A DNA stretch of 37,292 bases from an uncultured Candidatus Saccharibacteria bacterium (GTDB lineage Bacteria > Patescibacteriota > Minisyncoccia > Minisyncoccales > Minisyncoccaceae), in assembly GCA_964431785.1 (NCBI GenBank), contig CAYSKM010000001.1:4272-41563 (forward strand), written 5' to 3'. Shown here piece by piece: positions 23,793 through 37,291 of the stretch. The translations under genes were made by a program, and so were the position numbers. How positions within the stretch are numbered: the first letter of the stretch is position 1; each line of letters begins with the position of its first letter. The notes under the pieces were generated by a model. It had not been told where the DNA came from. It saw nothing but the letters and a program-made list of their open reading frames with translations, and searched no databases.

Positions 23793-24149
23793 TTATATTT
23801 TACAGTTATTGCAAGTTCTTGCTTCTGGAATGATTTTTAATCTTTCAATTTCTATTTCTTTGTGGCATTTTTCGCACATCCCATAGGTATTGTTTTTGAT
23901 TTTTTCTAGAGCGTTATTGATGTTTTTTAGTTTCAGCTCAAGAGAATGTTCTACTGGAAGAAGATTCTCATATTCTTCTACTTCATCTGTTTCACATTCA
24001 ATGTCGTCGCAATTTTCTTCGTGAGGAAACTTTGTTTCCCAATCATCCTCTCCCTCCCCTCTTGATGCAAATGTTTGAAGTTGGTCTTCAATTTCTTTTT
24101 TGTTTTTTTCGAGCATTGTTTTCAGCTCTTCAATTGTATTATTGTCCAT
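23793..24149 (-). CDS. TraR/DksA C4-type zinc finger protein
   Basis: ALEKIKNNTYGMCEKCHKEIEIERLKIIPEARTCNNC. Confidence 0.88.
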   Translation of the reverse strand: MDNNTIEELKTMLEKNKKEIEDQLQTFASRGEGEDDWETKFPHEENCDDIECETDEVEEYENLLPVEHSLELKLKNINNALEKIKNNTYGMCEKCHKEIEIERLKIIPEARTCNNCKI

Positions 24150-26517
24150 TGTTTTGTTTATTATCTTGATTTTCTGGTTCTGGTGTTTCGTTGTTTCCTG
24201 TTTTAATTTTATTTGAGATGTGAGATATTTGAAGCTTGATGTTTCTTTCTTTTTTCTCGTTTATTTCATTGATTTTGTCTCTGAATTGCTTAACTTTTCC
24301 AGAAATAGCTTGATATCTTTCTTTTAATTCTTCTCTTGCTTTTTCTGTCTTAGATAAAGTGTCTTCAAGCTTCCATCTTTCTGTTTCAATTTCTCTTCTT
24401 TCTGCTTCTATCTTTTTTCTTTGAACTTCAAGAGCTCTAAGTTCGTTTTTGTTTCCAGCTGCGTCTGATCTTTTTTCTAGTATCTTTATTTCTTCTTCTG
24501 ATAGTTTTTCCTTATTCTTTATATTAGAAATCTTTCTATTAAGATCGTCTTTTAGGGCTGTGTTTTCAAACATTTTATCTTTTATTTCAAAAGCTTCTTC
24601 TTCAATCTTTTCTAGTTCTTTTTGGGTTTCTCTTTTTTCCTGTTCTAAAAGAATGTCTTCCCTATCTCTTCTAAGGATTTCTAGCTCAAGATTAAGTTCT
24701 CTTTCTTTTGATTCTATTTTTTCAAAATTATAAGCACATTCACTAAGTTGAGCATGTAATGATTCAAGTTCATCTTCTTTTTCCCTTCTTTCTATAACAA
24801 CGTTATTTCTTTCGTCTTCTATTTTCCATCTTTCTTTTTCAAAAGCTCTTTTTTCTTCTGGTGATTTAGCGTTATGTTCTTGATCTTCTACGCTTTTTTT
24901 TATTTCCTCTATTCTTTGCAATCTACTCATCACAAGCTCTAGTTTTTTTTCAGCTCTTTCTATTTCCATTTCAAGTTCCTTTTTTCTTTGTTCAAAAGGA
25001 ACCTTTTCCTCAAGAATGTTTGATAATTCTTCTTCTGTATCAAAAGTACAATTAGTTATTTTCCTAAGTTTTTCTTCGTCTGTTTCTTCTTTTTTTATTC
25101 TTTCTTTGAGTTTTTTTTCTGTTTCTTGTTCTTGTAGAAATCTTTTTTTATCAGCTTCCTCTGCTAATCTTTTTTTCTCTTCTTCTTCTTTTTCTTTCTT
25201 TTTTTCTGAAGAAGTTATTTTTTCAGACTCTTCTGATATGTCTTTTAAAGTAGGAATGCTTGGTATTTTTACTTCGGTTTTATCTTTTTCTTTATGATCT
25301 CTTGGGTTTAATTTTGAAAGATCAGAGATTTCAGGAAGATTTTCTATGGCAAAGTCTTTAAAGCTTTGTGCAGATGTTTTATTGATGTTTTCAGGAACAA
25401 TTTTTTCTTCATTTTTTTCAATTAAAGCTTCTTTTTTTGCTTTTTCTTCAGAGAGTTGCTTGTTGAGTTGCTCTAATTCAAATTGTGATGAGGGTGTGCT
25501 TGTCGCAGAATTATCTTTTTCTTGGGTTTTCTTTTCTTCTGCTGATCGTTTTTCGCTTATTAGTTTTTCTTTTTCTGCTCTAACTTTTTCTATTTCTTGT
25601 TTTATTTTTTCAAGTTCTGCTTTTTCTCTTTCAACTCTTTCTTTTTCTTCTTGTTCTCTTTTTTCTAATTCTCTTTTGATTTGCTCTTGCCTAATTCTTT
25701 CTTTTTCTGCTTTTTCTTTTTCAAGTTCTGTTAAGAGTCTTTCTCTCTCTGCCCTTTCTCTTTCTATTTCTTCTTGTTCTTTTTTGGTGGCTTCTTCTTG
25801 CTCTCTTTTAACTTGCTCTTGCCTAATTCTTTCTTTTTCTGCTTTTTCTCTTTCAAGTTCTGCTAAGAGTCTTTCTTTTTCTAGTTTCTCTAATTCTATT
25901 TTTTCAAGCTCTTCTTTTTCTCTTTCTAATCTTTCTCTTTCTGCTCTTTCTCTTTCTAATCTTTCTCTCTCTGCCCTTTCTCTTTTGAGTTCATTTTCTA
26001 ATCTTTCTCTCTCTGCCCTTTCTCTTTCTAGTTTTTCTTTTTCAATTCTTTCTTTTTCTGCTTTTTCTATTTCAATTTTTTCTTTTTCAAGCTTTTCGCG
26101 AGCAAGTCTTTCTTTTTCAAGTTCTCTTTCTAATCTTTCTCTTTCTGCTTTTTCTTTTTCTTGTTTGATAATTTCTTGTTCTTGTTGCAGTTTTCTTTCT
26201 TGAGCGGCAAGGATTTTTTCTTGAGCTTCTTTGGCGATACGATCTTTTTCTGATACGTCAAGATCATCCTTTATTAAAGGAGATGTTGGTTTTTGGCTAT
26301 CCACAAACTGTATGTTTTGTTTTTGTTGTGGATGGACGGGCTGCACTGAAGAAGTTGGTTGAGAAACTGGGATTGGTGGCATTTGAGGTGTGACTGGAGA
26401 AACAGAAACTTGACTATTTTTTTCTTGTTTCTTTTGAATAGTTTCTTTTTCAGCTTCTACCAAATCCGCTCTCATGGTACGAATTTGGCTTTTTTCTATT
26501 TTAAGGTTTTCCTCCAT
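24139..26517 (-). CDS. Large E/K/R-rich coiled-coil protein
   Basis: 792-aa ORF; N-terminal IRTM motif, P/Q linker, ERERAERERLE repeats, recurring E.ERWK motif. Confidence 0.85.
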   Translation of the reverse strand: MEENLKIEKSQIRTMRADLVEAEKETIQKKQEKNSQVSVSPVTPQMPPIPVSQPTSSVQPVHPQQKQNIQFVDSQKPTSPLIKDDLDVSEKDRIAKEAQEKILAAQERKLQQEQEIIKQEKEKAERERLERELEKERLAREKLEKEKIEIEKAEKERIEKEKLERERAERERLENELKRERAERERLERERAERERLEREKEELEKIELEKLEKERLLAELEREKAEKERIRQEQVKREQEEATKKEQEEIERERAERERLLTELEKEKAEKERIRQEQIKRELEKREQEEKERVEREKAELEKIKQEIEKVRAEKEKLISEKRSAEEKKTQEKDNSATSTPSSQFELEQLNKQLSEEKAKKEALIEKNEEKIVPENINKTSAQSFKDFAIENLPEISDLSKLNPRDHKEKDKTEVKIPSIPTLKDISEESEKITSSEKKKEKEEEEKKRLAEEADKKRFLQEQETEKKLKERIKKEETDEEKLRKITNCTFDTEEELSNILEEKVPFEQRKKELEMEIERAEKKLELVMSRLQRIEEIKKSVEDQEHNAKSPEEKRAFEKERWKIEDERNNVVIERREKEDELESLHAQLSECAYNFEKIESKERELNLELEILRRDREDILLEQEKRETQKELEKIEEEAFEIKDKMFENTALKDDLNRKISNIKNKEKLSEEEIKILEKRSDAAGNKNELRALEVQRKKIEAERREIETERWKLEDTLSKTEKAREELKERYQAISGKVKQFRDKINEINEKKERNIKLQISHISNKIKTGNNETPEPENQDNKQNNGQ

Positions 26518-29755: not shown

Positions 29756-30598
29756 CTAGACTTTTTTAATCGTGTTAGCTTTATTTTTAATTATTTTTTT
29801 TGGGGTTTTTGCTCTAGTAGTTTTTTTGATAGTGTTCTTTTTTGGAGATATATCTTCTTTCTTTAAGATGGGTTTTTTTCTAGGCTTTCTTTTTATTACT
29901 TCTTTTTCCGAATCATTTTTTACGGTTTCATTTGTTGAGGATTTTCTTGATTTAATTCTGTATGGAGGCATTTCGTCTTGATCAAAAATTAATCTATTAC
30001 TAATAATTTCACAATTATTTTCAATAGGCAGAATTTCTTTAATAGGGCTTAGTCTTTTGATGGAAATGGGGATAATTGAAAGAAGAAGCAGTAAAAAAAC
30101 TCCCCAGTACTCTGGATTAGAAAAAGAAATTATTAGTCCAAGGGCGATGGCTATTATTGTTCCAATTGAAGCGGTCCACAGAATTGCAAACAATCCACTT
30201 AATATAATTAAAAGCAGGGCAAGTGATGGGAATAAGCATAGCATTGCTCCTGCTAATGTAGCTATCCCCCTTCCCCCTTGGAAATTTAATAGTGGAGACC
30301 AGTTGTGTCCAATGATAGCAGCAACACCTGTTAGTGCAACAACTAAAGACGGAGTTCCTGAATTAATAGCTATTAGGACAGCGATATATCCTTTTAATAA
30401 ATCTAAGGCAGCGGTTGTAATTCCTTGCCATTTGCCAATGTTTTTCATTACATTGCTGGCAGAATTTTTTTTCCAGCCTATTTCTAGAATGTTTTTTGAT
30501 GTAGATAGTTTTGTGATAATGTAGCCAAAGGGCAGAGAACCTAAAATAAAGCCATTTAGAATAAATAGTGTATATGCTAATAATTCTGTATTAATCAT
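29756..30598 (-). CDS. plsY: PlsY-like acyltransferase, divergent, with Lys-rich tail
   Basis: LGSLPFGY, LDLLKG, IIGHNWS, GGRGIAT; motif 1 degenerate (GWKKNSASN) and motif 3 lacks His. Confidence 0.78.
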   Translation of the reverse strand: MINTELLAYTLFILNGFILGSLPFGYIITKLSTSKNILEIGWKKNSASNVMKNIGKWQGITTAALDLLKGYIAVLIAINSGTPSLVVALTGVAAIIGHNWSPLLNFQGGRGIATLAGAMLCLFPSLALLLIILSGLFAILWTASIGTIIAIALGLIISFSNPEYWGVFLLLLLSIIPISIKRLSPIKEILPIENNCEIISNRLIFDQDEMPPYRIKSRKSSTNETVKNDSEKEVIKRKPRKKPILKKEDISPKKNTIKKTTRAKTPKKIIKNKANTIKKV

Positions 30599-31266
30599 TT
30601 AAGATATGTTTTATTTTTAATTTTTTCTAATTGTTCTTTTAATCTTTCTTTGTGTGCGTAAAGGATTAACGGTGTAGCGCTTATAGCTGATAGCGTAAGA
30701 ATGGGGGCTGTGGCACTTATCCAAAAAACACCAATTATTTCTCCGACAAGACGACCAATTACTTGATCTGAAACACTATGTTTAAGAAAATTTTTGTTAA
30801 TTTTTCTATTTGCTAGAAGTTCTCCAATTATCATTGCAGTTAATAGAATAATTACATATCCAAGAAATGCTTTTGGGCTATAAAAGAGGATTACTCCAAT
30901 AAAACAAGCAGCTCCTCTTCCTCCTTTGAAATCTTGAAATATAGAATAGTTGTGGCCTAATACTGCAAAAAATGTTGCAATTGCTAAGGAATAGATTGCA
31001 ACAGGGCCTATTTCAAGAGCAATATATGTGGCTAGTATTGCTTTTGATGCGTCAAGTAAGAAGGCAATTAAGAAATACACTATTCCTGCAATTATTCCAT
31101 ATTTTTTTCTTGATGCTCTAAAAGTATTTAATGCTCCTAGGTTTTTTGACCCAGTTTTTCTTAGGTCTATTTTGAGAATGTATTTACTAATTATTAATAC
31201 AAAAGGGATAGATCCTAGTCCATAAGCAGTGCAAGCAATTAATATATAGATTAAAATGTCTGGCAT
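30595..31266 (-). CDS. plsY: PlsY-family glycerol-3-phosphate acyltransferase paralog
   Basis: LGSIPF, DLRKTGSKNLGALNTFR, LDASKA, VLGHNYS, FKGGRGAA; ATGA overlap with the next gene. Confidence 0.88.
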   Translation of the reverse strand: MPDILIYILIACTAYGLGSIPFVLIISKYILKIDLRKTGSKNLGALNTFRASRKKYGIIAGIVYFLIAFLLDASKAILATYIALEIGPVAIYSLAIATFFAVLGHNYSIFQDFKGGRGAACFIGVILFYSPKAFLGYVIILLTAMIIGELLANRKINKNFLKHSVSDQVIGRLVGEIIGVFWISATAPILTLSAISATPLILYAHKERLKEQLEKIKNKTYLK

Positions 31267-31290
31267 GTTATAGTTTATTAGTTATTAAAA

Positions 31291-32160
31291 CTAAGTTTCG
31301 CTTAAACAGCAAATTAGGGCTCCTGGTCCAATGTGTGCTCCAATTATTGGCCCGATTGATCCAATTAGCTCAATTATTAATTCTCCAGTATATTTTTCTT
31401 CAATCATTTTTTTAAGTTTTTCTGCTTCTTCAATTGCATTACCGTGAGTTATAATAATTCTACAGCTTTTCATATCTTTGGTTAATTCTTCAAATGTTTT
31501 AAATACGGCTGTGGCTGGATCATTTGATTGTATTTTTAGTGAGGCTGGCTTAATTTCTCCTTCTTTCATGATAATAATGGGACGCATTCCTATTTTTTGC
31601 ATTTGTTCAATCATGATAGCGACAGTATGAGAAATTCTGCCACCTGCTTCAAGCCAAGCAGAGGTGCCAATGGAAGCAAATAGTTTAATTTCTTTTTTAA
31701 GTGAGTCAAGTTTTTCGATAACTTCTTCAATACTGTGTCCTTGATTAGATAATTCCCTTGCCTTAATTGCTAACATAAGCTCTGACGAGTCTGCGTGCAT
31801 GGAATCAAAGATATAGATATTGTCTTGCAATTCTTTTGCAATCATTTTTTTTGCTTGTACAGCTGAATTATATGCTCCAGATAGTTTTGAGCTAATTGAA
31901 ATATATAGAACTTTTTCCGAGTTTTTTAATGACTCCTCAAAGGCTTTTTTGTAAATACCAATTGAGGGTTGGGAAGTCTTTGGGCCATTGCCATTTATCG
32001 AGCGAGAAAGGTTACTCATTTTTTCAAGTAGATTATTGTCGTTTAGACCATCAATTCCTTCCCATGTAAGCTTGAAAGGAACAGTAATCAGGTCGTATTT
32101 TTCAAGCATTTGCTCTGTTGCTGGAGCACTACTTCCGATAATAATATTTAATGGTTTCAT
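31291..32160 (-). CDS. DegV/FakB fatty-acid-binding protein
   Basis: PKTSQPS, ISSKLSGAYNSA, GGRI, ITHG, IGAHIGPGA. Confidence 0.92.
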   Translation of the reverse strand: MKPLNIIIGSSAPATEQMLEKYDLITVPFKLTWEGIDGLNDNNLLEKMSNLSRSINGNGPKTSQPSIGIYKKAFEESLKNSEKVLYISISSKLSGAYNSAVQAKKMIAKELQDNIYIFDSMHADSSELMLAIKARELSNQGHSIEEVIEKLDSLKKEIKLFASIGTSAWLEAGGRISHTVAIMIEQMQKIGMRPIIIMKEGEIKPASLKIQSNDPATAVFKTFEELTKDMKSCRIIITHGNAIEEAEKLKKMIEEKYTGELIIELIGSIGPIIGAHIGPGALICCLSET

Positions 32161-32178
32161 GTATTTTTGTTTAATTAA

Positions 32179-33069
32179 TTAGTTTTCGTCCCATGATAAT
32201 GTTATTGCTCCTGGTCCTGCATGACCTCCAATTGCGATACATAATGCATTAATAAATGAAACATCAGTATTTGGTAAGGCTTTCAATAATTCTTTTATTT
32301 TTTCAGCTGAATTAATATCATCAGCGTGCGTTATTGCAACGGGTATTTTTTTCCCTTTTGATCTTAGGTTTTTTGTTCTGGTGTCAAATTCTTCAACAAG
32401 GGTATCTGCTAAAGCTTTTACATTTCTCTTAACGCCGATTATGGTAAGTTTTCCTTCTCTGAGTCCAAGTAATGGTTTTATTCCAGTTAATTTTTCCATT
32501 CCTGACATGGGGATAAATCTTGGAATTCTGCCACTTGCCTCTAGCCACTTTGCCTTATCATAAAAAGCAATTAATTTTATATTTTTAACCTCCTTTATTA
32601 ATCTTTTATTAATTTCAGAAAGCTTTAGCTTAGTTTCTTCAATCATTCTTGTGGCTCTTAAAATCAGTAAGCCTAATTCTCCGGTTCCTCCTTCAGAATC
32701 AAAAACAGTGATTTTGTCTTGATATTCTTTTTGTAAAAACTTAATTGCTTGCTGGGCTGAGTTATATGATCCTGATACTTTGGATGAGATTGTGAAGCAT
32801 ATTATTTCTTCATATTCTGAAAGCTTTTCTTTGTATGCTTTAAGATAATCATTAATTGAGGGCTGGGAAGTTTTTACTAGGTCCGGAATATTGTTTTTTT
32901 CTGCGTATCTTATTTTTTGATAAACATTACCTTCTATGTTTGCCATTTCTTGATAATCAACCTTATAGTTTACGACTGTAATGTTGTGTTTTTTTATGAG
33001 CTCTTCGGGTAAGTCTAGCGTTTCGTCAGAGATGATTCCAATATGTTTTTTTTGTAGTGATTTTTCCAT
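32179..33069 (-). CDS. DegV/FakB fatty-acid-binding protein
   Basis: KTSQPS, ISSKVSGSYNSA, SGRI, GIKPLL, ITHA, GGHAGPGA. Confidence 0.92.
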   Translation of the reverse strand: MEKSLQKKHIGIISDETLDLPEELIKKHNITVVNYKVDYQEMANIEGNVYQKIRYAEKNNIPDLVKTSQPSINDYLKAYKEKLSEYEEIICFTISSKVSGSYNSAQQAIKFLQKEYQDKITVFDSEGGTGELGLLILRATRMIEETKLKLSEINKRLIKEVKNIKLIAFYDKAKWLEASGRIPRFIPMSGMEKLTGIKPLLGLREGKLTIIGVKRNVKALADTLVEEFDTRTKNLRSKGKKIPVAITHADDINSAEKIKELLKALPNTDVSFINALCIAIGGHAGPGAITLSWDEN

Positions 33070-33087
33070 AATAGTTCATTATGATTG

Positions 33088-34893
33088 TTATTTAATTACC
33101 CATCCAACAATAAGGCTTTCTGGGCAAGCATTAATACTTGTAACTGGATCTGTTATGGTTACAAATGGTACTTCACTTTTAATGATATTTTTTAGTTTTG
33201 TTCTTAGTTCTTGTGCATCTTTTGGGTTGTCTCCATGAGCAATTACTGCTCTTATTTTAGCACCATTTTTTATGTCTTTTTTTGTATTCTTTTCTATTTT
33301 TTTAAATAATATTTCTGCAAAATGATCGGTTTTGATAATGTCTAAGTAGACTAGTTTTCCGTTTTTCATTTCTGCTAGTGAATAGTATTTCTTGTTTGAA
33401 TCAAACCAATTGATCTTTATGTTAGATTGATTTTTTTTCTTCCAGTTTTTATCTTCCAAAACTGCATAAACATTTATTTTTGGAATGAAGTTTTCAAGCT
33501 TTCTCACAATATCCTTAACATTTCTTAGCTCTTTTATTAATTCAAGTGCTTTTAATACTACCAAAGATTGTCCGGCGCTAATGTTTTTTGAATCAATAAC
33601 ATATACTTTTTCTTTTAAATTACTTGAAAGCATTTCCCTAGCTTTTAGTGCAGCATTGTAGTTATCGGATAGCTTTGCGCTGGAAACAATACAAAGAACT
33701 TTTTCGAATTTATTTAATTGTGACTTGAAAGATTCATAAAAGAATTCTGAAGAAATAGAAGTAATTTTTGGCTTATTTTTTATTCCTTGTTTCTCTGCTT
33801 CTTTAATTTTCTCACATATACTTGATCCTTGCAAGGCATCGCCTTCAGGCCAATTTATTTTGAAGGGAATAATATCAATGTCATAGTGATTAATAATTTT
33901 TTGACCTAGCCCAGCTCTTTCATCAATGACAATTCCAATTGAAACCTTCTCAATGGACTGCTCCCCTGCCACTTCCTTTGCCATGTCTTGAATTTTAAGG
34001 CTTTCTATATCCCCCATTTCTTTAATGATGTCTCTTACTTCGTATGGACTATCTGTATGAATATGTATTTTTGTTTTGTTACCAATTTGTATTACATCAA
34101 GACAGTTGCCAAGGTGATGTAATTTTGATCTTATTTTATCAGATTTATAGTATGTATTAGTTAATAATGACACTACCTCGTATCTATTAGACAGTATTTG
34201 AATAAATCTTTTGGTGGCCATTTGAGAATCGTTGGTGCTGGTTGAAATAATGATTTGTTCGATTGATTCGTCAAGATTGTGAATTCTTAGAATGTCAAAA
34301 TAGCTTTCTAGGATTATAAGGAAGCCAAGTCCACCAGCATCAACAACCCCAGCTGTTTTCAGGATTTCCATGTGTTCTGGAGTCTCAAGAAGGGCTTGAT
34401 TTGCTTTTTTTAGCGAATAATGAAATACTTTTACGATGTTGCTTTCTTCTTTTTCAGAGCATTTTTTAAATGAAGTAGCAAATGACTTCATTACATCAAG
34501 AATGGTGCCGTCTTTTGGATTTTGAATGGAGTCTTTGGCTCGCAGAAAGCCACCTTCAAAAGCAGTGCCAAGTTTTTTAACTGACAACGATCCTTCTCTT
34601 GGTAAATTGTCAAAAAACCCTGCGAGCCACCCTGTGTATATAATGCCGGTATTTCCTTGAGCAGCGGTTAAGGCTCCGTCCATGGCACTGTCTCCTAATT
34701 CTCCTATGCTTTCAAAATCTTTATTTTCAATTGCTTCTTTAACGCCAATAAGAGTCGCTGATAAATTACTTCCAGTATCTTGGTCAGGAACAGGAAAAAC
34801 ATTAATTTTATTAATTTGTTCTTTGTCTTTTTCAATCTTTTCGCAAGAAAAGATGATCATTTTTTGTAATTCAATTTGAGATATTTCTTCCAT
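33088..34893 (-). CDS. DAK2/FakA fatty-acid kinase fused to a degenerate DegV domain
   Basis: INKINVFPVPDQDTGSN, AQGNTG, GTILDV, GVVDAGGLG, KIHIHT; C-terminal DegV-like region. Confidence 0.9.
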   Translation of the reverse strand: MEEISQIELQKMIIFSCEKIEKDKEQINKINVFPVPDQDTGSNLSATLIGVKEAIENKDFESIGELGDSAMDGALTAAQGNTGIIYTGWLAGFFDNLPREGSLSVKKLGTAFEGGFLRAKDSIQNPKDGTILDVMKSFATSFKKCSEKEESNIVKVFHYSLKKANQALLETPEHMEILKTAGVVDAGGLGFLIILESYFDILRIHNLDESIEQIIISTSTNDSQMATKRFIQILSNRYEVVSLLTNTYYKSDKIRSKLHHLGNCLDVIQIGNKTKIHIHTDSPYEVRDIIKEMGDIESLKIQDMAKEVAGEQSIEKVSIGIVIDERAGLGQKIINHYDIDIIPFKINWPEGDALQGSSICEKIKEAEKQGIKNKPKITSISSEFFYESFKSQLNKFEKVLCIVSSAKLSDNYNAALKAREMLSSNLKEKVYVIDSKNISAGQSLVVLKALELIKELRNVKDIVRKLENFIPKINVYAVLEDKNWKKKNQSNIKINWFDSNKKYYSLAEMKNGKLVYLDIIKTDHFAEILFKKIEKNTKKDIKNGAKIRAVIAHGDNPKDAQELRTKLKNIIKSEVPFVTITDPVTSINACPESLIVGWVIK

Positions 34894-34939
34894 GTTGTTG
34901 TGTTTTAGATGGTTCAGTTTGTCTGTTAATTATGGAAAA

Positions 34940-35590
34940 TTATTTTACTTTTTCTTCAAGATCTTTTAACATTCTTGAGGCCATGTCTTTGCCTCCAATA
35001 CCAAAAGCTAATCCAAAAACAATTACAATTAGAGCGATGAAACCAATAAAAATTGTAAGAATAAGAGTTTTAACTATTTGTAGTTGGTATAAAATAGCAA
35101 GAATTGCTAGTATCCATGTACTTGTTGCTACTATGTTCCCTATTATATTGGAATAGCTCATTTTTTGCTTTTCCATTTTTACTAGTATTATTTTTTTTGA
35201 AAAGTCTGCTAAAAATACAGCAAAAATGAATATGAGAATTGATATTAGTATGTTTGGGAAGTAATTAATTACTTCTTGTAATAAGCTATTAATTTGTGAT
35301 AATTTTATAATTTCTAGAGAAATACTCAAAGCAACTAGAATAAAGAAAAACTCTATTATTGATCCAATGAATTTTGATATATCTAATTTTGTATCATAGC
35401 GATCAAAGAAATCTTCCCAGCCTAATGATTTAAGCATTTGATTAAGTCTTAATTTGTTTAAGAAATTTTTGACAATTTTCTTGATTTTTGAGCCTGTTAG
35501 CCATCCAATTAGTAAAATAAGAATTGCCCAAAAAGCTTGTAATAAACTTTCTGAAAGTATGGTTAAAAAATTTGTTATTATTTCTTGCAT
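34940..35590 (-). CDS. MscS/CmpX-like conserved TM-helix membrane protein
   Basis: AILILLIGW, YFPNIL, AILAILYQLQI, GLAFGIGGKD. Confidence 0.75.
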   Translation of the reverse strand: MQEIITNFLTILSESLLQAFWAILILLIGWLTGSKIKKIVKNFLNKLRLNQMLKSLGWEDFFDRYDTKLDISKFIGSIIEFFFILVALSISLEIIKLSQINSLLQEVINYFPNILISILIFIFAVFLADFSKKIILVKMEKQKMSYSNIIGNIVATSTWILAILAILYQLQIVKTLILTIFIGFIALIVIVFGLAFGIGGKDMASRMLKDLEEKVK

Positions 35591-35627
35591 TTTTTTATTT
35601 CTTTAAATTTTATTTATTATATAATGA

Positions 35628-36218
35628 TTACCATTTTGCCTTATGTAGTCCCATATTATAGCCTATTCTATTAAATGCAACATGAATAAAGAATGTTAAG
35701 AAAAATAATGAAATCCAAACATTAATATGTAAATGATAAATGGGTTGCAGTAAAATAAAGCATCCAATAACATAGTTTGTTTGATCAAAGGGCATAAAAG
35801 GAAATCCTGGTTTAATATTAATACGTCTTTTAATAAAAGCAAATACTAAATCCCCAATGATTGTTCCTAGAGAAAGAAGAAGTCCGAATATTATGGGGCT
35901 AAGAAGGTATTGATCGAATCCAATTGTTTCATAAAGGTTTAAATTTAAATGTTCGTGAATTAAGAATAATATTTGAAAATATCCTGTTCCAATTATTATT
36001 TCTGATACAACACCCCTCCATGTTTTATGTGTTCCAAGTAGATCATTTTTTCCTAGTTTTTTGCCATTATCAATAGGAGTGGCTAGTTTTTCAATCAATT
36101 TAGTGTTGTTGGCAATCAGAGGAGGCGCTCCGTTAGCCATATAGGCTGGAAGGAAAAAGTAAATAATAGAAGCAATGTATAGGAGTATGTAGTATGTTTG
36201 GCTTATGATGTTGTCCAT
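35628..36218 (-). CDS. CarS-like (CDP-archaeol synthase/DUF46) cytidylyltransferase
   Basis: LPAYMANGAPP, PIDNG, LGTHKTWRG, GDLVFAFIKRRINIKPG, FDQ, C-terminal GLHKAKW. Confidence 0.85.
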   Translation of the reverse strand: MDNIISQTYYILLYIASIIYFFLPAYMANGAPPLIANNTKLIEKLATPIDNGKKLGKNDLLGTHKTWRGVVSEIIIGTGYFQILFLIHEHLNLNLYETIGFDQYLLSPIIFGLLLSLGTIIGDLVFAFIKRRINIKPGFPFMPFDQTNYVIGCFILLQPIYHLHINVWISLFFLTFFIHVAFNRIGYNMGLHKAKW

Positions 36219-36226
36219 GTTACTTT

Positions 36227-36826
36227 TTAGAACTTGATAATTTTCTTTTCCTTTCCTTTAATTAATCTTTTAATATTTTCTCGGTGACTGTACCAGATTA
36301 TTGGTATGTAGATTAAGCCAAGAGCAAGATATGTTATTGATTCGGTTGCATAAAATAAAACTACGGGAATTATAAAAACAATAATTAAATTTGTTAAACT
36401 CATTATTTTAGTTGTGAATAGTATTGATAGCCAAATAAGTAAAAACATTAAAAAATTGGTAAAACCTATTATGCATAGCAGTGTGGCAAATATTGCAGAA
36501 ACAGCTTTTCCTCCTTTAAATTTTAACCATAAACTATACATACTTCCTGTTATGCCTGAAAGTGCAACGATTGAGATTTGCCAATCATTTAATCCTAAAT
36601 ACTGAGCTATTGCAATTGGAATAGCAATTTTTGCAATGTCGAGAATTGCAACTGCTAAAAAGTATACAAAACCAAGCGTTCTAAGTGTATTGGTGGCTCC
36701 GACATTTCCACTTCCCTTTTTTGTTAAATCAATTTTTTTTGTTTTTGCTATTAGGTAGCCAAATGGAATTGATCCAATTAAGTAAGCAAAGATTACTAAT
36801 GCTAGAATTATTATTTCTGTGTTCAT
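36227..36826 (-). CDS. plsY: Glycerol-3-phosphate acyltransferase PlsY, most canonical copy
   Basis: YLIGSIPFG, GSGNVGATNTLR, FKGGKAVS, HRENIKRLIKGKE. Confidence 0.93.
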   Translation of the reverse strand: MNTEIIILALVIFAYLIGSIPFGYLIAKTKKIDLTKKGSGNVGATNTLRTLGFVYFLAVAILDIAKIAIPIAIAQYLGLNDWQISIVALSGITGSMYSLWLKFKGGKAVSAIFATLLCIIGFTNFLMFLLIWLSILFTTKIMSLTNLIIVFIIPVVLFYATESITYLALGLIYIPIIWYSHRENIKRLIKGKEKKIIKF

Positions 36827-37024: not shown

Positions 37025-37291
37025 TGTCCACATTATGTCCAGATTATCCCCTATTTTGTCCACATTATGTCCAGAAAATGCTCACTTTGCTTGATAATAC
37101 GTTTACTATTTGCTAATTAATAAATAAATTTCATATTTGTCAATATTGAATGATGGATTAGTTTGTTTGTATTTTTTCGGTTTTGTCCACATTATGTCCA
37201 GATTATCCCCTATTTTGTCCACATTATGTCCAGATTCTGTCCAGATTCTGTCCAGATTCTGTCCAGATTAATATACGTAAATATCTGGACA
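37025..37291. repeat. Array of TGTCCA(C/G)A DnaA-box-like repeats; candidate replication origin
   Basis: 11 direct copies (37025, 37036, 37057, 37068, 37184, 37195, 37216, 37227, 37238, 37249, 37260) and one inverted (37284-37291); a 51-bp block is duplicated exactly (37025-37075 = 37184-37234). Confidence 0.7.

What the first reader, a model, noticed from the sequence alone, without database searches (positions are those of the whole stretch)
29756..36826. Lipid-salvage operon: FakA/FakB, three PlsY and CarS-like, with no PlsC or PlsX in the cluster
Seen: eight closely spaced co-oriented genes: plsY, carS-like, mscS-like, DAK2-DegV, degV, degV, plsY, plsY-like. Established: FakA/FakB convert exogenous fatty acids to acyl-phosphate, the PlsY donor; PlsY normally acylates only sn-1, and PlsC needs acyl-ACP/CoA; CPR bacteria generally lack fatty-acid synthesis and their membrane source is unresolved. 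Inference: an ACP/CoA-independent route from scavenged fatty acids to CDP-diacylglycerol, in which a divergent PlsY performs the second acylation and the CarS-like enzyme replaces CdsA.
Basis: partly seen in the sequence, partly recalled or inferred. Interest (0 to 1): 0.85.

Follow-up and report, generated by a model that had tools for sequence, protein, structure and literature searches.

The report
Carrier-free membrane lipid operon, CPR bacteria
A tiny parasitic bacterium, from a group usually said to be unable to make lipids, keeps eight tightly packed, conserved genes that likely turn scavenged fatty acids into membrane phospholipid without the usual carrier protein; its genome also holds the standard second acyltransferase elsewhere, but several relatives lack that enzyme, so one of the operon's altered acyltransferases may stand in for it.

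Summary
The eight co-oriented genes are plsY (Y1), carS-like, an MscS-type membrane-helix gene, fakA:degV, degV, degV, plsY (Y2) and plsY (Y3). The operon is a core feature of the family (inferred Minisyncoccaceae) and is syntenic in cultured Minisyncoccus archaeiphilus.

plsC lies on contig C12 in an ACP-free thiolase/DUF35-like–fabG–fabZ–fabK–acc operon. fadD, gpsA and a PI-phosphate-synthase-like gene beside ino1 are also present.

Two parts of the idea survive. None of 47 CarS-positive order genomes has a true CdsA. Seven of 24 relatives lack plsC and the thiolase, yet keep three PlsY and CarS.

The three PlsY are old clades with different active sites. Y1 is canonical. Y2 keeps the phosphate clamp but changes residues around the 2-OH, and is the best PlsC-substitute candidate. 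Y3 has a rebuilt acceptor site, travels with Fak (fused to it in 40 of 40 long homologs), and likely re-acylates lysolipids.

Nothing was assayed. The scan noted this cluster before in other genomes. No description of it as a pathway turned up in ten literature searches, while two papers state the gap that it would fill.

The parts
36227..36826 (-). plsY Y1, canonical acyl-phosphate:G3P sn-1 acyltransferase (199 aa)
   Evidence: PF02660 3e-41; TIGR00023 over cut-off; aligned to 5XJ5: S35, N37, R45, G102, G103, K104, H177 and N180 kept, S142 replaced by N
35628..36218 (-). CarS-family CTP-transferase (196 aa), predicted CDP-diacylglycerol synthase in place of CdsA
   Evidence: PF01864 98 bits; PRK04032 126, below its cut-off of 148; only PDB match is 5GUF; D50, D123, D145 and KxxRG / GD..FxKRR / DQ invariant in 33 homologs; never found with true CdsA
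34940..35590 (-). membrane protein with MscS-type conserved TM helices only (216 aa); role open, possibly lipid or fatty-acid handling
   Evidence: PF05552 twice; NF033912 51 bits against cut-off 100; Atlas look-alikes are all PF05552; lies between carS and fakA in 57 of 80 loci
33088..34893 (-). FakA kinase (DAK2 + middle domain) fused to a DegV domain in place of FakA_C (601 aa)
   Evidence: NVFPVPDQDTG, GNTG and KIHIHT present; no Cys at the Cys240 stretch
32179..33069 (-). DegV/FakB fatty-acid-binding protein 1 (296 aa)
   Evidence: PF02645 6e-49; TIGR00762 over cut-off; TSQPS, SGR and HAGP motifs
31291..32160 (-). DegV/FakB fatty-acid-binding protein 2 (289 aa)
   Evidence: PF02645 6e-54; TIGR00762 over cut-off; TSQPS, GGR and HIGP motifs
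30595..31266 (-). plsY Y2, divergent PlsY-fold acyltransferase (223 aa); candidate acyl-phosphate-dependent lyso-PA acyltransferase
   Evidence: PF02660 9e-29; model pLDDT 94 with PlsY fold, TM 0.69; S35, N37 and R45 kept; K104R, S142R and N180R; R172 and R208 invariant in 35 homologs
29756..30598 (-). plsY Y3, divergent PlsY-fold acyltransferase with a rebuilt acceptor site and a Lys-rich tail (280 aa); Fak-coupled, candidate lysolipid re-acylase
   Evidence: PF02660 2e-31; model of residues 1-215 pLDDT 94, Z 23.6, rmsd 2.5 over 190 residues to 5XJ5; S35W, N37K and R45K, GGRG kept, no His or Asn in motif 3; fused to FakA in 40 of 40 long homologs

Best explanation
The eight genes form one conserved operon that likely supplies the fatty-acid-scavenging and assembly half of an ACP-free phospholipid pathway: the fatty acid kinase and its DegV partners would turn free fatty acids into acyl-phosphate, Y1 would acylate glycerol-3-phosphate, and the CarS-family enzyme would convert phosphatidic acid to CDP-diacylglycerol in place of CdsA. 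In this genome the second acyl chain can come from PlsC on contig C12. It would use acyl-CoA from FadD or from the adjoining thiolase-based, ACP-free synthesis operon. Y2 is the likely acyl-phosphate-using alternative for that step, and it would be the only route in relatives that lack plsC. Y3 is tied to Fak rather than to de novo synthesis and most likely re-acylates scavenged lysolipids. The probable end product is phosphatidylinositol (phosphate), through the AIP/PIP-synthase-like gene beside ino1; GpsA would supply glycerol-3-phosphate. Shown: gene content, order, folds, residue changes and co-occurrence. Inferred: every activity. My odds for each step: Fak makes acyl-phosphate 0.85; Y1 sn-1 0.9; CarS on diacyl PA 0.85; a divergent PlsY can do the second acylation 0.55, with Y2 rather than Y3 about 2:1; Y3 a lysolipid re-acylase 0.4.
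For: Own genome: plsC, gpsA, fadD and a CDP-alcohol transferase beside ino1 are present; there is no PlsX, ACP, FabF/FabH, GlpK or CdsA match over cut-off apart from the carS gene itself. The published table of the complete M. archaeiphilus genome shows both operons in the same order, with no PF00550, PF02504, PF00109, PF01148, PF01884 or PF01040 entry. In other families the two operons are one locus with pips beside it; 18 of 80 loci hold both thiolase and fakA within 10 kb of carS. Order sample of 151 genomes: 0 of 47 CarS-positive genomes have true CdsA; 47 of 47 have PlsC or PlsY, and 45 of 47 have two or more acyltransferases; all 44 FakA genomes have PlsY; the 8 CarS-positive genomes without PlsY all lack FakA, and 7 of them have two PlsC. 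Y2 (table): in 8 of 9 PlsC-less CarS-positive genomes and 7 of 7 PlsC-less family genomes; never without Y1 (25 of 25); Y1 lacks Y2 only where PlsC is present (4 of 4). The thiolase-plsC module is missing from an unbroken rpmA-uppS-xer stretch in G021, G006, G014 and G020, where G015, G007 and G009 carry it. The published table for Ca. Microsyncoccus PMX.50 lists plsY, fakA, carS and fadD but no K00655 plsC or K00626 thiolase. Y3: present in all 6 Fak-positive, CarS-negative genomes, fused or adjacent to fakA in 5 of them. In vitro, FakA/B-PlsY plus FadD-PlsC already makes PA without ACP (PMC13400652).
Against: plsC is in this genome, so Y2 is not needed here, and 16 of 25 one-PlsC genomes keep Y2 anyway, which also fits a separate job for Y2. 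I know of no PlsY-family enzyme shown to acylate sn-2 (own knowledge; none appeared). Archaeal CarS from A. fulgidus strongly prefers DGGGP over PA and did not complement an E. coli cdsA mutant (PMC9385802). The catalytic Cys240 of S. aureus FakA is not seen in these homologs. The PlsC-less genomes are incomplete MAGs: G040, G084 and G133 have the thiolase operon cut by contig ends; 4 of the 9 order cases (family f22) carry archaeal ether-lipid genes instead; G013, G018 and G023 give no clean synteny test. No thioesterase is annotated in M. archaeiphilus to link acyl-CoA to Fak. Kin are not independent, so the negative PlsC-PlsY correlation (rho -0.71, n 47) is overstated. The Y2 S142 and N180 mapping rests on MAFFT only (HMMER stops at residue 144).
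Confidence: 0.62

Rival explanations
1. Canonical two-donor route only: Y1 (acyl-phosphate) plus PlsC (acyl-CoA) make PA. Y2 and Y3 acylate other acceptors (headgroup-bearing lysolipids, glycolipids, G1P or proteins), and relatives without plsC take lyso-PA, PA or lysolipids from neighbours or live with lysolipid-rich membranes.
For: plsC and fadD are in this genome. Y2 is kept beside PlsC in 16 of 25 genomes. CPR-rich size fractions are rich in lysolipids (PMC7242380). Six genomes keep Fak plus Y3 with neither CarS nor CdsA.
Against: PlsC-less genomes keep Y1, Fak and CarS, which would leave lyso-PA with no outlet and CarS with no internal substrate. Y1 lacks Y2 only where PlsC is present.
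Confidence: 0.3
2. Y3 (alone, or paired with the translationally coupled Y2), not Y2, is the sn-2 enzyme. It gives scavenged fatty acids a direct path to sn-2 even where PlsC handles home-made chains.
For: Y3 loses both residues that hold the G3P 2-OH (His177; Ser142 becomes Thr). It is present in all PlsC-less family genomes, is fused to FakA, and overlaps Y2 by 4 nt.
Against: Y3 also loses the phosphomonoester clamp (S35W, R45K) and the oxyanion Asn37. It persists in genomes with no Y1, PlsC, CarS or CdsA match (G058, G060, G158), where PA could be neither started nor used.
Confidence: 0.2
3. The CarS-like enzyme is a true CDP-archaeol synthase that activates isoprenoid lipid taken from the methanogen host, giving a mixed membrane; the acyl genes serve a parallel, minor route.
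For: Cultured family members parasitise Methanospirillum. The downstream synthase is closest to archaetidylinositol phosphate synthase (138 bits, cut-off 180). In family f22, GGR, UbiA, polyprenyl synthase and PcrB genes sit in this same locus. AfCarS prefers DGGGP.
Against: This genome has no PcrB, UbiA or polyprenyl synthase match, and neither does the M. archaeiphilus table. All 47 CarS-positive genomes carry diacyl acyltransferases and none has CdsA, so PA would have no activating enzyme.
Confidence: 0.12
4. One reading: a self-contained, ACP- and CoA-free salvage route that is the cell's only source of PA.
For: The operon alone holds activation, two or more acyltransferases and a CTP-transferase. 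This may be the true state of the PlsC-less relatives.
Against: plsC, fadD and a ten-gene CoA-type synthesis operon are in the same bin. C12 fits the bin by tetranucleotide profile (rank 16 of 39) and is syntenic in M. archaeiphilus.
Confidence: 0.05

Closest known systems
FakA/FakB fatty acid kinase + PlsY exogenous fatty-acid pathway of Bacillota (S. aureus, streptococci; PDB 7RM7, 7W7H, 5XJ5)
   Same: DAK2 nucleotide site, His-x-His of the middle domain, free DegV/FakB proteins, a canonical PlsY; acyl-phosphate as the sn-1 donor.
   Different: No PlsX or ACP to pass chains to sn-2; a whole DegV domain replaces FakA_C; Cys240 not seen; two extra PlsY clades with altered acceptor sites; all in one operon with a CarS-family gene.
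CDP-archaeol synthase CarS (A. fulgidus, A. pernix 5GUF)
   Same: Family profile, conserved aspartates and FxKRR/DQ motifs, same size, and a downstream AIP/PIP-synthase-like gene.
   Different: No ether-lipid precursor genes in this genome; found with diacyl acyltransferases and never with CdsA; below the equivalog cut-off; substrate predicted to be PA.
E. coli Aas (acyl activation fused to a lysophospholipid acyltransferase; recalled, not tested by a call)
   Same: An activating enzyme joined to an acyltransferase in one chain, as in the Y3-FakA-DegV fusions; proposed lysolipid re-acylation.
   Different: Unrelated folds (PlsY + DAK2/DegV against PlsC-type + acyl-ACP synthetase); no ACP. An analogy only.
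ACP-independent archaeal fatty acid synthase of Sulfolobus acidocaldarius (ketothiolase/DUF35; bioRxiv 10.1101/2024.07.05.601840), for the partner operon on C12
   Same: Archaeal-type thiolase, an adjacent Zn-ribbon/OB DUF35-like protein, a FabG-type reductase, no ACP or ketosynthase.
   Different: FabZ and FabK instead of MaoC and MDR enoyl reductase; DUF35-like part fused to DUF362; biotin carboxylase genes and plsC in the operon; in a bacterium.
Probst et al. 2020 (PMC7242380) on Nealsonbacteria lipid genes
   Same: Notes PlsY and PlsC without PlsX or ACP, floats an ACP-independent route, and asks where acyl-phosphate comes from.
   Different: The passages read name no Fak, CarS or PlsY paralog classes; Fak here is the likely answer to their question.

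Membership tests
PlsY (canonical G3P sn-1 acyltransferase): Y1 | TIGR00023 over cut-off; phosphate clamp S35/R45/K104/N180; H177; N37 | tested here: met
   159 against 137 bits; all present; S142 is N in 50 of 62 Y1-class sequences
PlsY (canonical): Y2 | Invariable G3P pocket | tested here: not met
   K104R, S142R and N180R in 36-37 of 38 sequences; S35, N37 and R45 kept; the C-terminal mapping is by MAFFT only
PlsY (canonical): Y3 | Invariable G3P pocket and motif-3 His/Asn | tested here: not met
   W35 48/53, K37 48/53, K45 44/53 (ungapped); three aligners differ in motif-3 register but none gives His or Asn
PlsY fold: Y2 and Y3 | PlsY membrane fold with the GG[KR]G acyl-phosphate loop | tested here: met
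   Y3 Z 23.6, rmsd 2.5, 190 aligned; Y2 TM 0.69, E 2e-7; loop invariant
FakA | ADP-Mg site Asn32/Asp38/Asp40/Thr41 and Asn82 | tested here: met
   NxxNVFPVPDQDTG-type motif in 72 of 72 homologs; GNTG and DAGG in the own protein
FakA | His282/His284 | tested here: met
   KxH[IV]HT in 69 of 72 homologs
FakA | Catalytic Cys240 | tested here: not met
   The stretch reads x-[RK]-[YF]-E-[VI] or similar with no Cys in 70 of 72 homologs; 2 not matched; the register against YCTE is gapped
FakA | FakA_C domain without a fatty-acid tunnel | tested here: not met
   The C-terminus matches full-length DegV/FakB (PF02645 1-278/280) instead; it lacks the GR and HxGP motifs of the free DegVs
FakB/DegV (two free genes) | DegV profile and conserved carboxyl-site motifs, including the Arg of (S/G)GR | tested here: met
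   TIGR00762 over cut-off; motifs; assigning GR to Arg173 is recalled
Fak system | ATP-dependent acyl-phosphate formation | not testable with these tools
   needs an assay
CarS (CDP-archaeol synthase) | CarS-like profile and catalytic motifs | tested here: met
   PF01864 98 bits; match to 5GUF
CarS (CDP-archaeol synthase) | Equivalog PRK04032 cut-off | tested here: not met
   126 against 148 bits
CarS (CDP-archaeol synthase) | DGGGP supply (GGGPS and DGGGPS) in the genome | tested here: not met
   No tblastn match with CPR PcrB, UbiA or polyprenyl synthase queries in a 90%-complete genome; none in the M. archaeiphilus table; host supply not excluded
CarS (CDP-archaeol synthase) | Selectivity for DGGGP over PA | not testable with these tools
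   needs an assay
MscS channel | Beta and C-terminal channel domains | tested here: not met
   Only PF05552 TM helices match, 216 aa
Archaeal KT/DUF35 fatty acid synthase (partner operon on C12) | Archaeal-type thiolase with catalytic Cys | tested here: met
   Best PDB matches 7YVY 1e-63 and 6ESQ 7e-51; CGGG, HDAF and GHP motifs
Archaeal KT/DUF35 fatty acid synthase (partner operon on C12) | Adjacent DUF35 scaffold | tested here: inconclusive
   Four invariant Cys; the top three PDB hits are DUF35-type but weak (E 0.034-0.2); no Pfam DUF35 hit

The most novel reading that the evidence does not exclude
Y2 is an acyl-phosphate-dependent sn-2 acyltransferase, a PlsY-fold replacement for PlsC, and Y3 is a Fak-coupled lysolipid re-acylase. 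Methanogen parasites that have lost plsC, such as Ca. Microsyncoccus archaeolyticus, would then build diacyl phospholipid from free fatty acids with neither ACP nor CoA, using an archaeal-family CarS on a bacterial lipid. That would be a complete membrane pathway in one eight-gene operon, and a concrete answer to how these CPR bacteria get bacterial membranes from an archaeal host setting.
Probability: 0.42. Interest if true: 0.88.

Novelty: new variant of a known kind. Interest (0 to 1): 0.74.

Why it matters
Where CPR bacteria get their membranes is a stated open question. Probst 2020 asks what makes acyl-phosphate for PlsY without PlsX. The M. archaeiphilus description says that how it obtains fatty acids 'remains unclear'. 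Parasites of methanogens cannot take fatty acids from the host's isoprenoid membrane (established knowledge). This operon, with its partner on C12, supplies a gene for every step from fatty acid to inositol phospholipid, in organisms that exist in co-culture. It also defines three testable enzymes: a CarS acting on a bacterial lipid, a possible acyl-phosphate sn-2 transferase (useful for minimal synthetic membranes), and a Fak-fused acyltransferase.

Tried and rejected
Rejected: 'no PlsC in the genome'; the TM gene as a full MscS channel; C12 as contamination (synteny); FadD as the obligatory acyl-CoA source for PlsC (7 of 24 relatives have FadD against 17 of 24 with PlsC, and 3 of the 7 FadD genomes lack PlsC); phylum-wide conservation of the operon (CarS in 65 of 401 phylum genomes, but of 16 loci read outside the order, 8 lie beside pips and none beside fak or plsY).

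Led nowhere: the promoter and terminator scan gave chance levels (32 against 37.6 expected; 3 against 4.0). No RNA holder was listed for the operon, so no reads were laid. The argS search for the module's site in G013, G018 and G023 was uninformative. Naming distant Y3 relatives gave a name for 1 of 10 clusters (Chloroflexota). The careful tree did not finish, so the quick tree was used. No complex prediction was run.

Literature searches that found no description of the cluster as a pathway. The two hits were seen as listings only. Subscription papers are outside the library; bioRxiv supplements and the Probst 2020 supplements and online genome lists were not seen and may list these genes.

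Full report
OBSERVATION. The window is the right-hand part of contig C1 of an 841-kb, 127-contig bin that is 90% complete. Eight minus-strand ORFs fill 36826 to 29756 with gaps of -4 to 46 nt. Pfam and NCBIfam give PlsY (Y1), CarS-like, a PF05552 TM-helix protein, DAK2-FakA_M-DegV, DegV, DegV, PlsY (Y2) and PlsY (Y3).

ORGANISM AND CONSERVATION. Y3 is 66% identical to a protein named Minisyncoccus archaeiphilus, and a locus labelled Minisyncoccaceae falls inside the family's clades in the PlsY tree. The family is therefore inferred to be Minisyncoccaceae. Among 24 family relatives, 23 have CarS and 24 have PlsY, 21 of them with three matches. The annotation table of the complete M. archaeiphilus genome lists the same eight genes in the same order, MNSC_12710-12780. 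Of 80 carS loci from GTDB, 24 show the whole order and 57 show carS-TM-fakA. CarS is in 65 of 401 phylum genomes, but none of 16 loci read outside the order has fak or plsY nearby, while 8 have pips.

THE REST OF THE GENOME. It lies in a ten-gene run: an archaeal-type thiolase, a Zn-ribbon/OB + DUF362 protein, fabG, a fabZ:fabK fusion, fabK, plsC, biotin carboxylase, biotin carrier, birA and carboxyltransferase. There is no match over cut-off for ACP, PlsX, FabF, FabH or GlpK, and the only CdsA-family hit is the carS gene. gpsA, fadD and an AIP/PIP-synthase-like gene beside ino1 are present. C12 fits the bin. M. archaeiphilus has the same run (MNSC_05910-06000), and its table has no ACP, PlsX, ketosynthase, CdsA, PcrB or UbiA entry. 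In other families both halves and pips form one locus, including a complete Nealsonbacteria chromosome (L095). The finding is thus half of a larger lipid system.

CARS IN PLACE OF CDSA. In 151 order genomes, 47 have a strong CarS match (E < 1e-20; 4 weak matches were dropped) and 4 have true CdsA, with no overlap. All 47 carry PlsC or PlsY, and 45 carry at least two acyltransferases. This genome has no ether-lipid precursor genes. Against this, AfCarS prefers DGGGP and did not rescue E. coli cdsA, and in family f22 the locus holds GGR, UbiA, polyprenyl synthase and PcrB genes. I infer that the enzyme acts on PA, and perhaps on both lipids.

FAK. The nucleotide-site residues and the His pair of S. 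aureus FakA are kept. Cys240 is not seen in 70 of 72 homologs, and FakA_C is replaced by a DegV domain that lacks motifs the two free DegVs keep. All 44 FakA-positive order genomes have PlsY, and the 8 CarS-positive genomes without PlsY all lack FakA. This ties Fak to acyl-phosphate use and answers, by inference, the question posed in PMC7242380.

THREE PLSY CLASSES. The quick tree groups Y1, Y2 (with a GGKAQAS variant) and Y3 as clades across many families (SH-aLRT 91-98; the careful tree did not finish). Mapped on A. aeolicus PlsY, Y1 keeps the G3P pocket. Y2 keeps S35, N37 and R45 but has Arg at positions 104, 142 and 180. Y3 has W35, K37 and K45 and no motif-3 His or Asn in any of three registers. 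Both fold as PlsY and keep the acyl-phosphate glycine loop.

DISTRIBUTION SEPARATES THE CLASSES (table, typed). Types for G005, G007 and G015 come from gene order, and divergent copies in G074, G098 and G161 were counted as Y3. Y1 is absent from 12 of 13 genomes with two or more PlsC, so a second PlsC likely replaces it at sn-1. Y2 never occurs without Y1 (25 of 25), and Y1 lacks Y2 only where PlsC is present (4 of 4). Y3 is in all 6 Fak-positive genomes without CarS, three of which have no other PlsY. All 40 long homologs of Y3 are Y3-DAK2-FakA_M fusions, 39 of them with DegV. Its nearest Atlas clusters are commonest in Chloroflexota, and 15 of 146 distant representatives carry its motif 1.

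RELATIVES WITHOUT PLSC. The same 7 of 24 family genomes lack both plsC and the thiolase and keep Y1, Y2, Y3, carS and fakA. In G021, G006, G014 and G020 the module is missing from an unbroken rpmA-uppS-xer stretch where G015, G007 and G009 carry it. G013, G018 and G023 give no clean test. The plsC match of G007 holds one stop. The genome of the Ca. Microsyncoccus archaeolyticus PMX.50 locus has no PF01553 match, and the published tables list plsC and thiolase orthologs only for PMX.108. Handles reached through loci (G041-G045) may duplicate sampled genomes and are not counted as independent. At order level, 8 of 9 PlsC-less CarS genomes have Y1 and Y2, but 4 have archaeal lipid genes and 3 have the thiolase operon cut by contig ends. 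All are incomplete MAGs, so absence is not proven.

MECHANISM (activities all inferred). Fatty acid is bound by DegV and phosphorylated by FakA. Y1 acylates G3P from GpsA. PlsC adds the second chain from acyl-CoA, or Y2 adds it from acyl-phosphate. The CarS-family enzyme makes CDP-DAG, and the PIP-synthase-like enzyme with Ino1 gives the inositol lipid. Y3 uses the same acyl-phosphate on another acceptor, most likely a scavenged lysolipid; the lysolipid enrichment of CPR fractions fits this. Unexplained: the link from acyl-CoA to Fak (no thioesterase annotated), the role of the TM protein, and why Y2 is kept beside PlsC.

LITERATURE SEEN. Passages plus supplementary table rows: PMC12281837 and PMC9763046. 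Abstract and sections 7 and 9: bioRxiv 2024.07.05.601840. Passages only: PMC7242380, PMC5700162, PMC9136124, PMC9385802, PMC13400652, PMC7852524, PMC6431249, PMC13293708, PMC7304191 and bioRxiv 2022.04.20.488981. The genes are annotated one by one in published tables. Ten searches found no account of the operon as a pathway, of CarS replacing CdsA in CPR, or of the PlsY classes. An ACP-independent route in Nealsonbacteria was floated in 2020, and GGGPS/DGGGPS were reported in one Parcubacteria genome. The Aas analogy is recalled. The scan's own notes show this cluster and the C12-type operon found before in other genomes; I treated them as leads only.

VERDICT. The feature is real and conserved, and a new variant of the Fak/PlsY pathway. 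Interest 0.74.

Noticed in passing
L009 (own contig C12) 148-10181, minus strand: Ten-gene ACP-free fatty-acid-synthesis-like operon (thiolase, DUF35-like:DUF362, fabG, fabZ:fabK, fabK, plsC, acc subunits, birA), preceded by [FeFe]-hydrogenase-like and NuoF-like genes and uppS; gained or lost as a block in the family.
   Followed up: yes
L198:4639-8568, L200, L201, L223 (family f22): GGR, UbiA (DGGGPS-like), polyprenyl synthase and PcrB (GGGPS-like) genes sit between Y2-type and Y3 plsY in the carS-fakA locus, in place of the thiolase module: archaeal ether-lipid genes in a CPR family with no PlsC match in 4 of 4 genomes.
   Followed up: partly
L190:5094-7694, L191:6743-9352, L192, L193; P0241-P0280: Single-chain Y3-FakA-DegV fusions of about 850 aa, some in genomes with no CarS, CdsA or PlsC match.
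   Followed up: partly
L182:11560-19324 (G040): A full mevalonate pathway and polyprenyl synthase are inserted between fabG and fabZ of the thiolase operon.
   Followed up: no
window 37025-37270: Two arrays of an 11-bp repeat (TGTCCA[C/G]ATTA-like) upstream of the operon at the contig end; 14 of 36 genome matches to the core are on C1 and 8 on C15. They resemble DnaA-box variants (recalled) or regulator sites.
   Followed up: partly
L168:8364-8885, L184, L187, L212: DUF359 gene (archaeal-type dephospho-CoA kinase family, function recalled) lying antisense inside the thiolase operon in several families, which fits a CoA-based pathway.
   Followed up: no
L168:4660-5928, L279, L280, L282, L283: A pips + PHP-domain gene pair sits beside carS within and outside the order; PHP may be the PI-phosphate phosphatase.
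   Followed up: no
G085:C15, G119:C7, G151:C3, G164:C11: PlsC-family domains within 830-870 aa frames in CarS-negative genomes; possibly Aas-like fusions.
   Followed up: no
window 824-21505: VirB4/TraG-like ATPase, PrgI, an SPFH protein and a run of large T4SS-pilin-domain proteins typical of Patescibacteria; Lys/Glu-rich repeat protein at 24139-26517.
   Followed up: no
L150-L154 (G019, G024): The thiolase-plsC-acc module lies between two argS paralogs in this genus, a different site from the other genera.
   Followed up: partly
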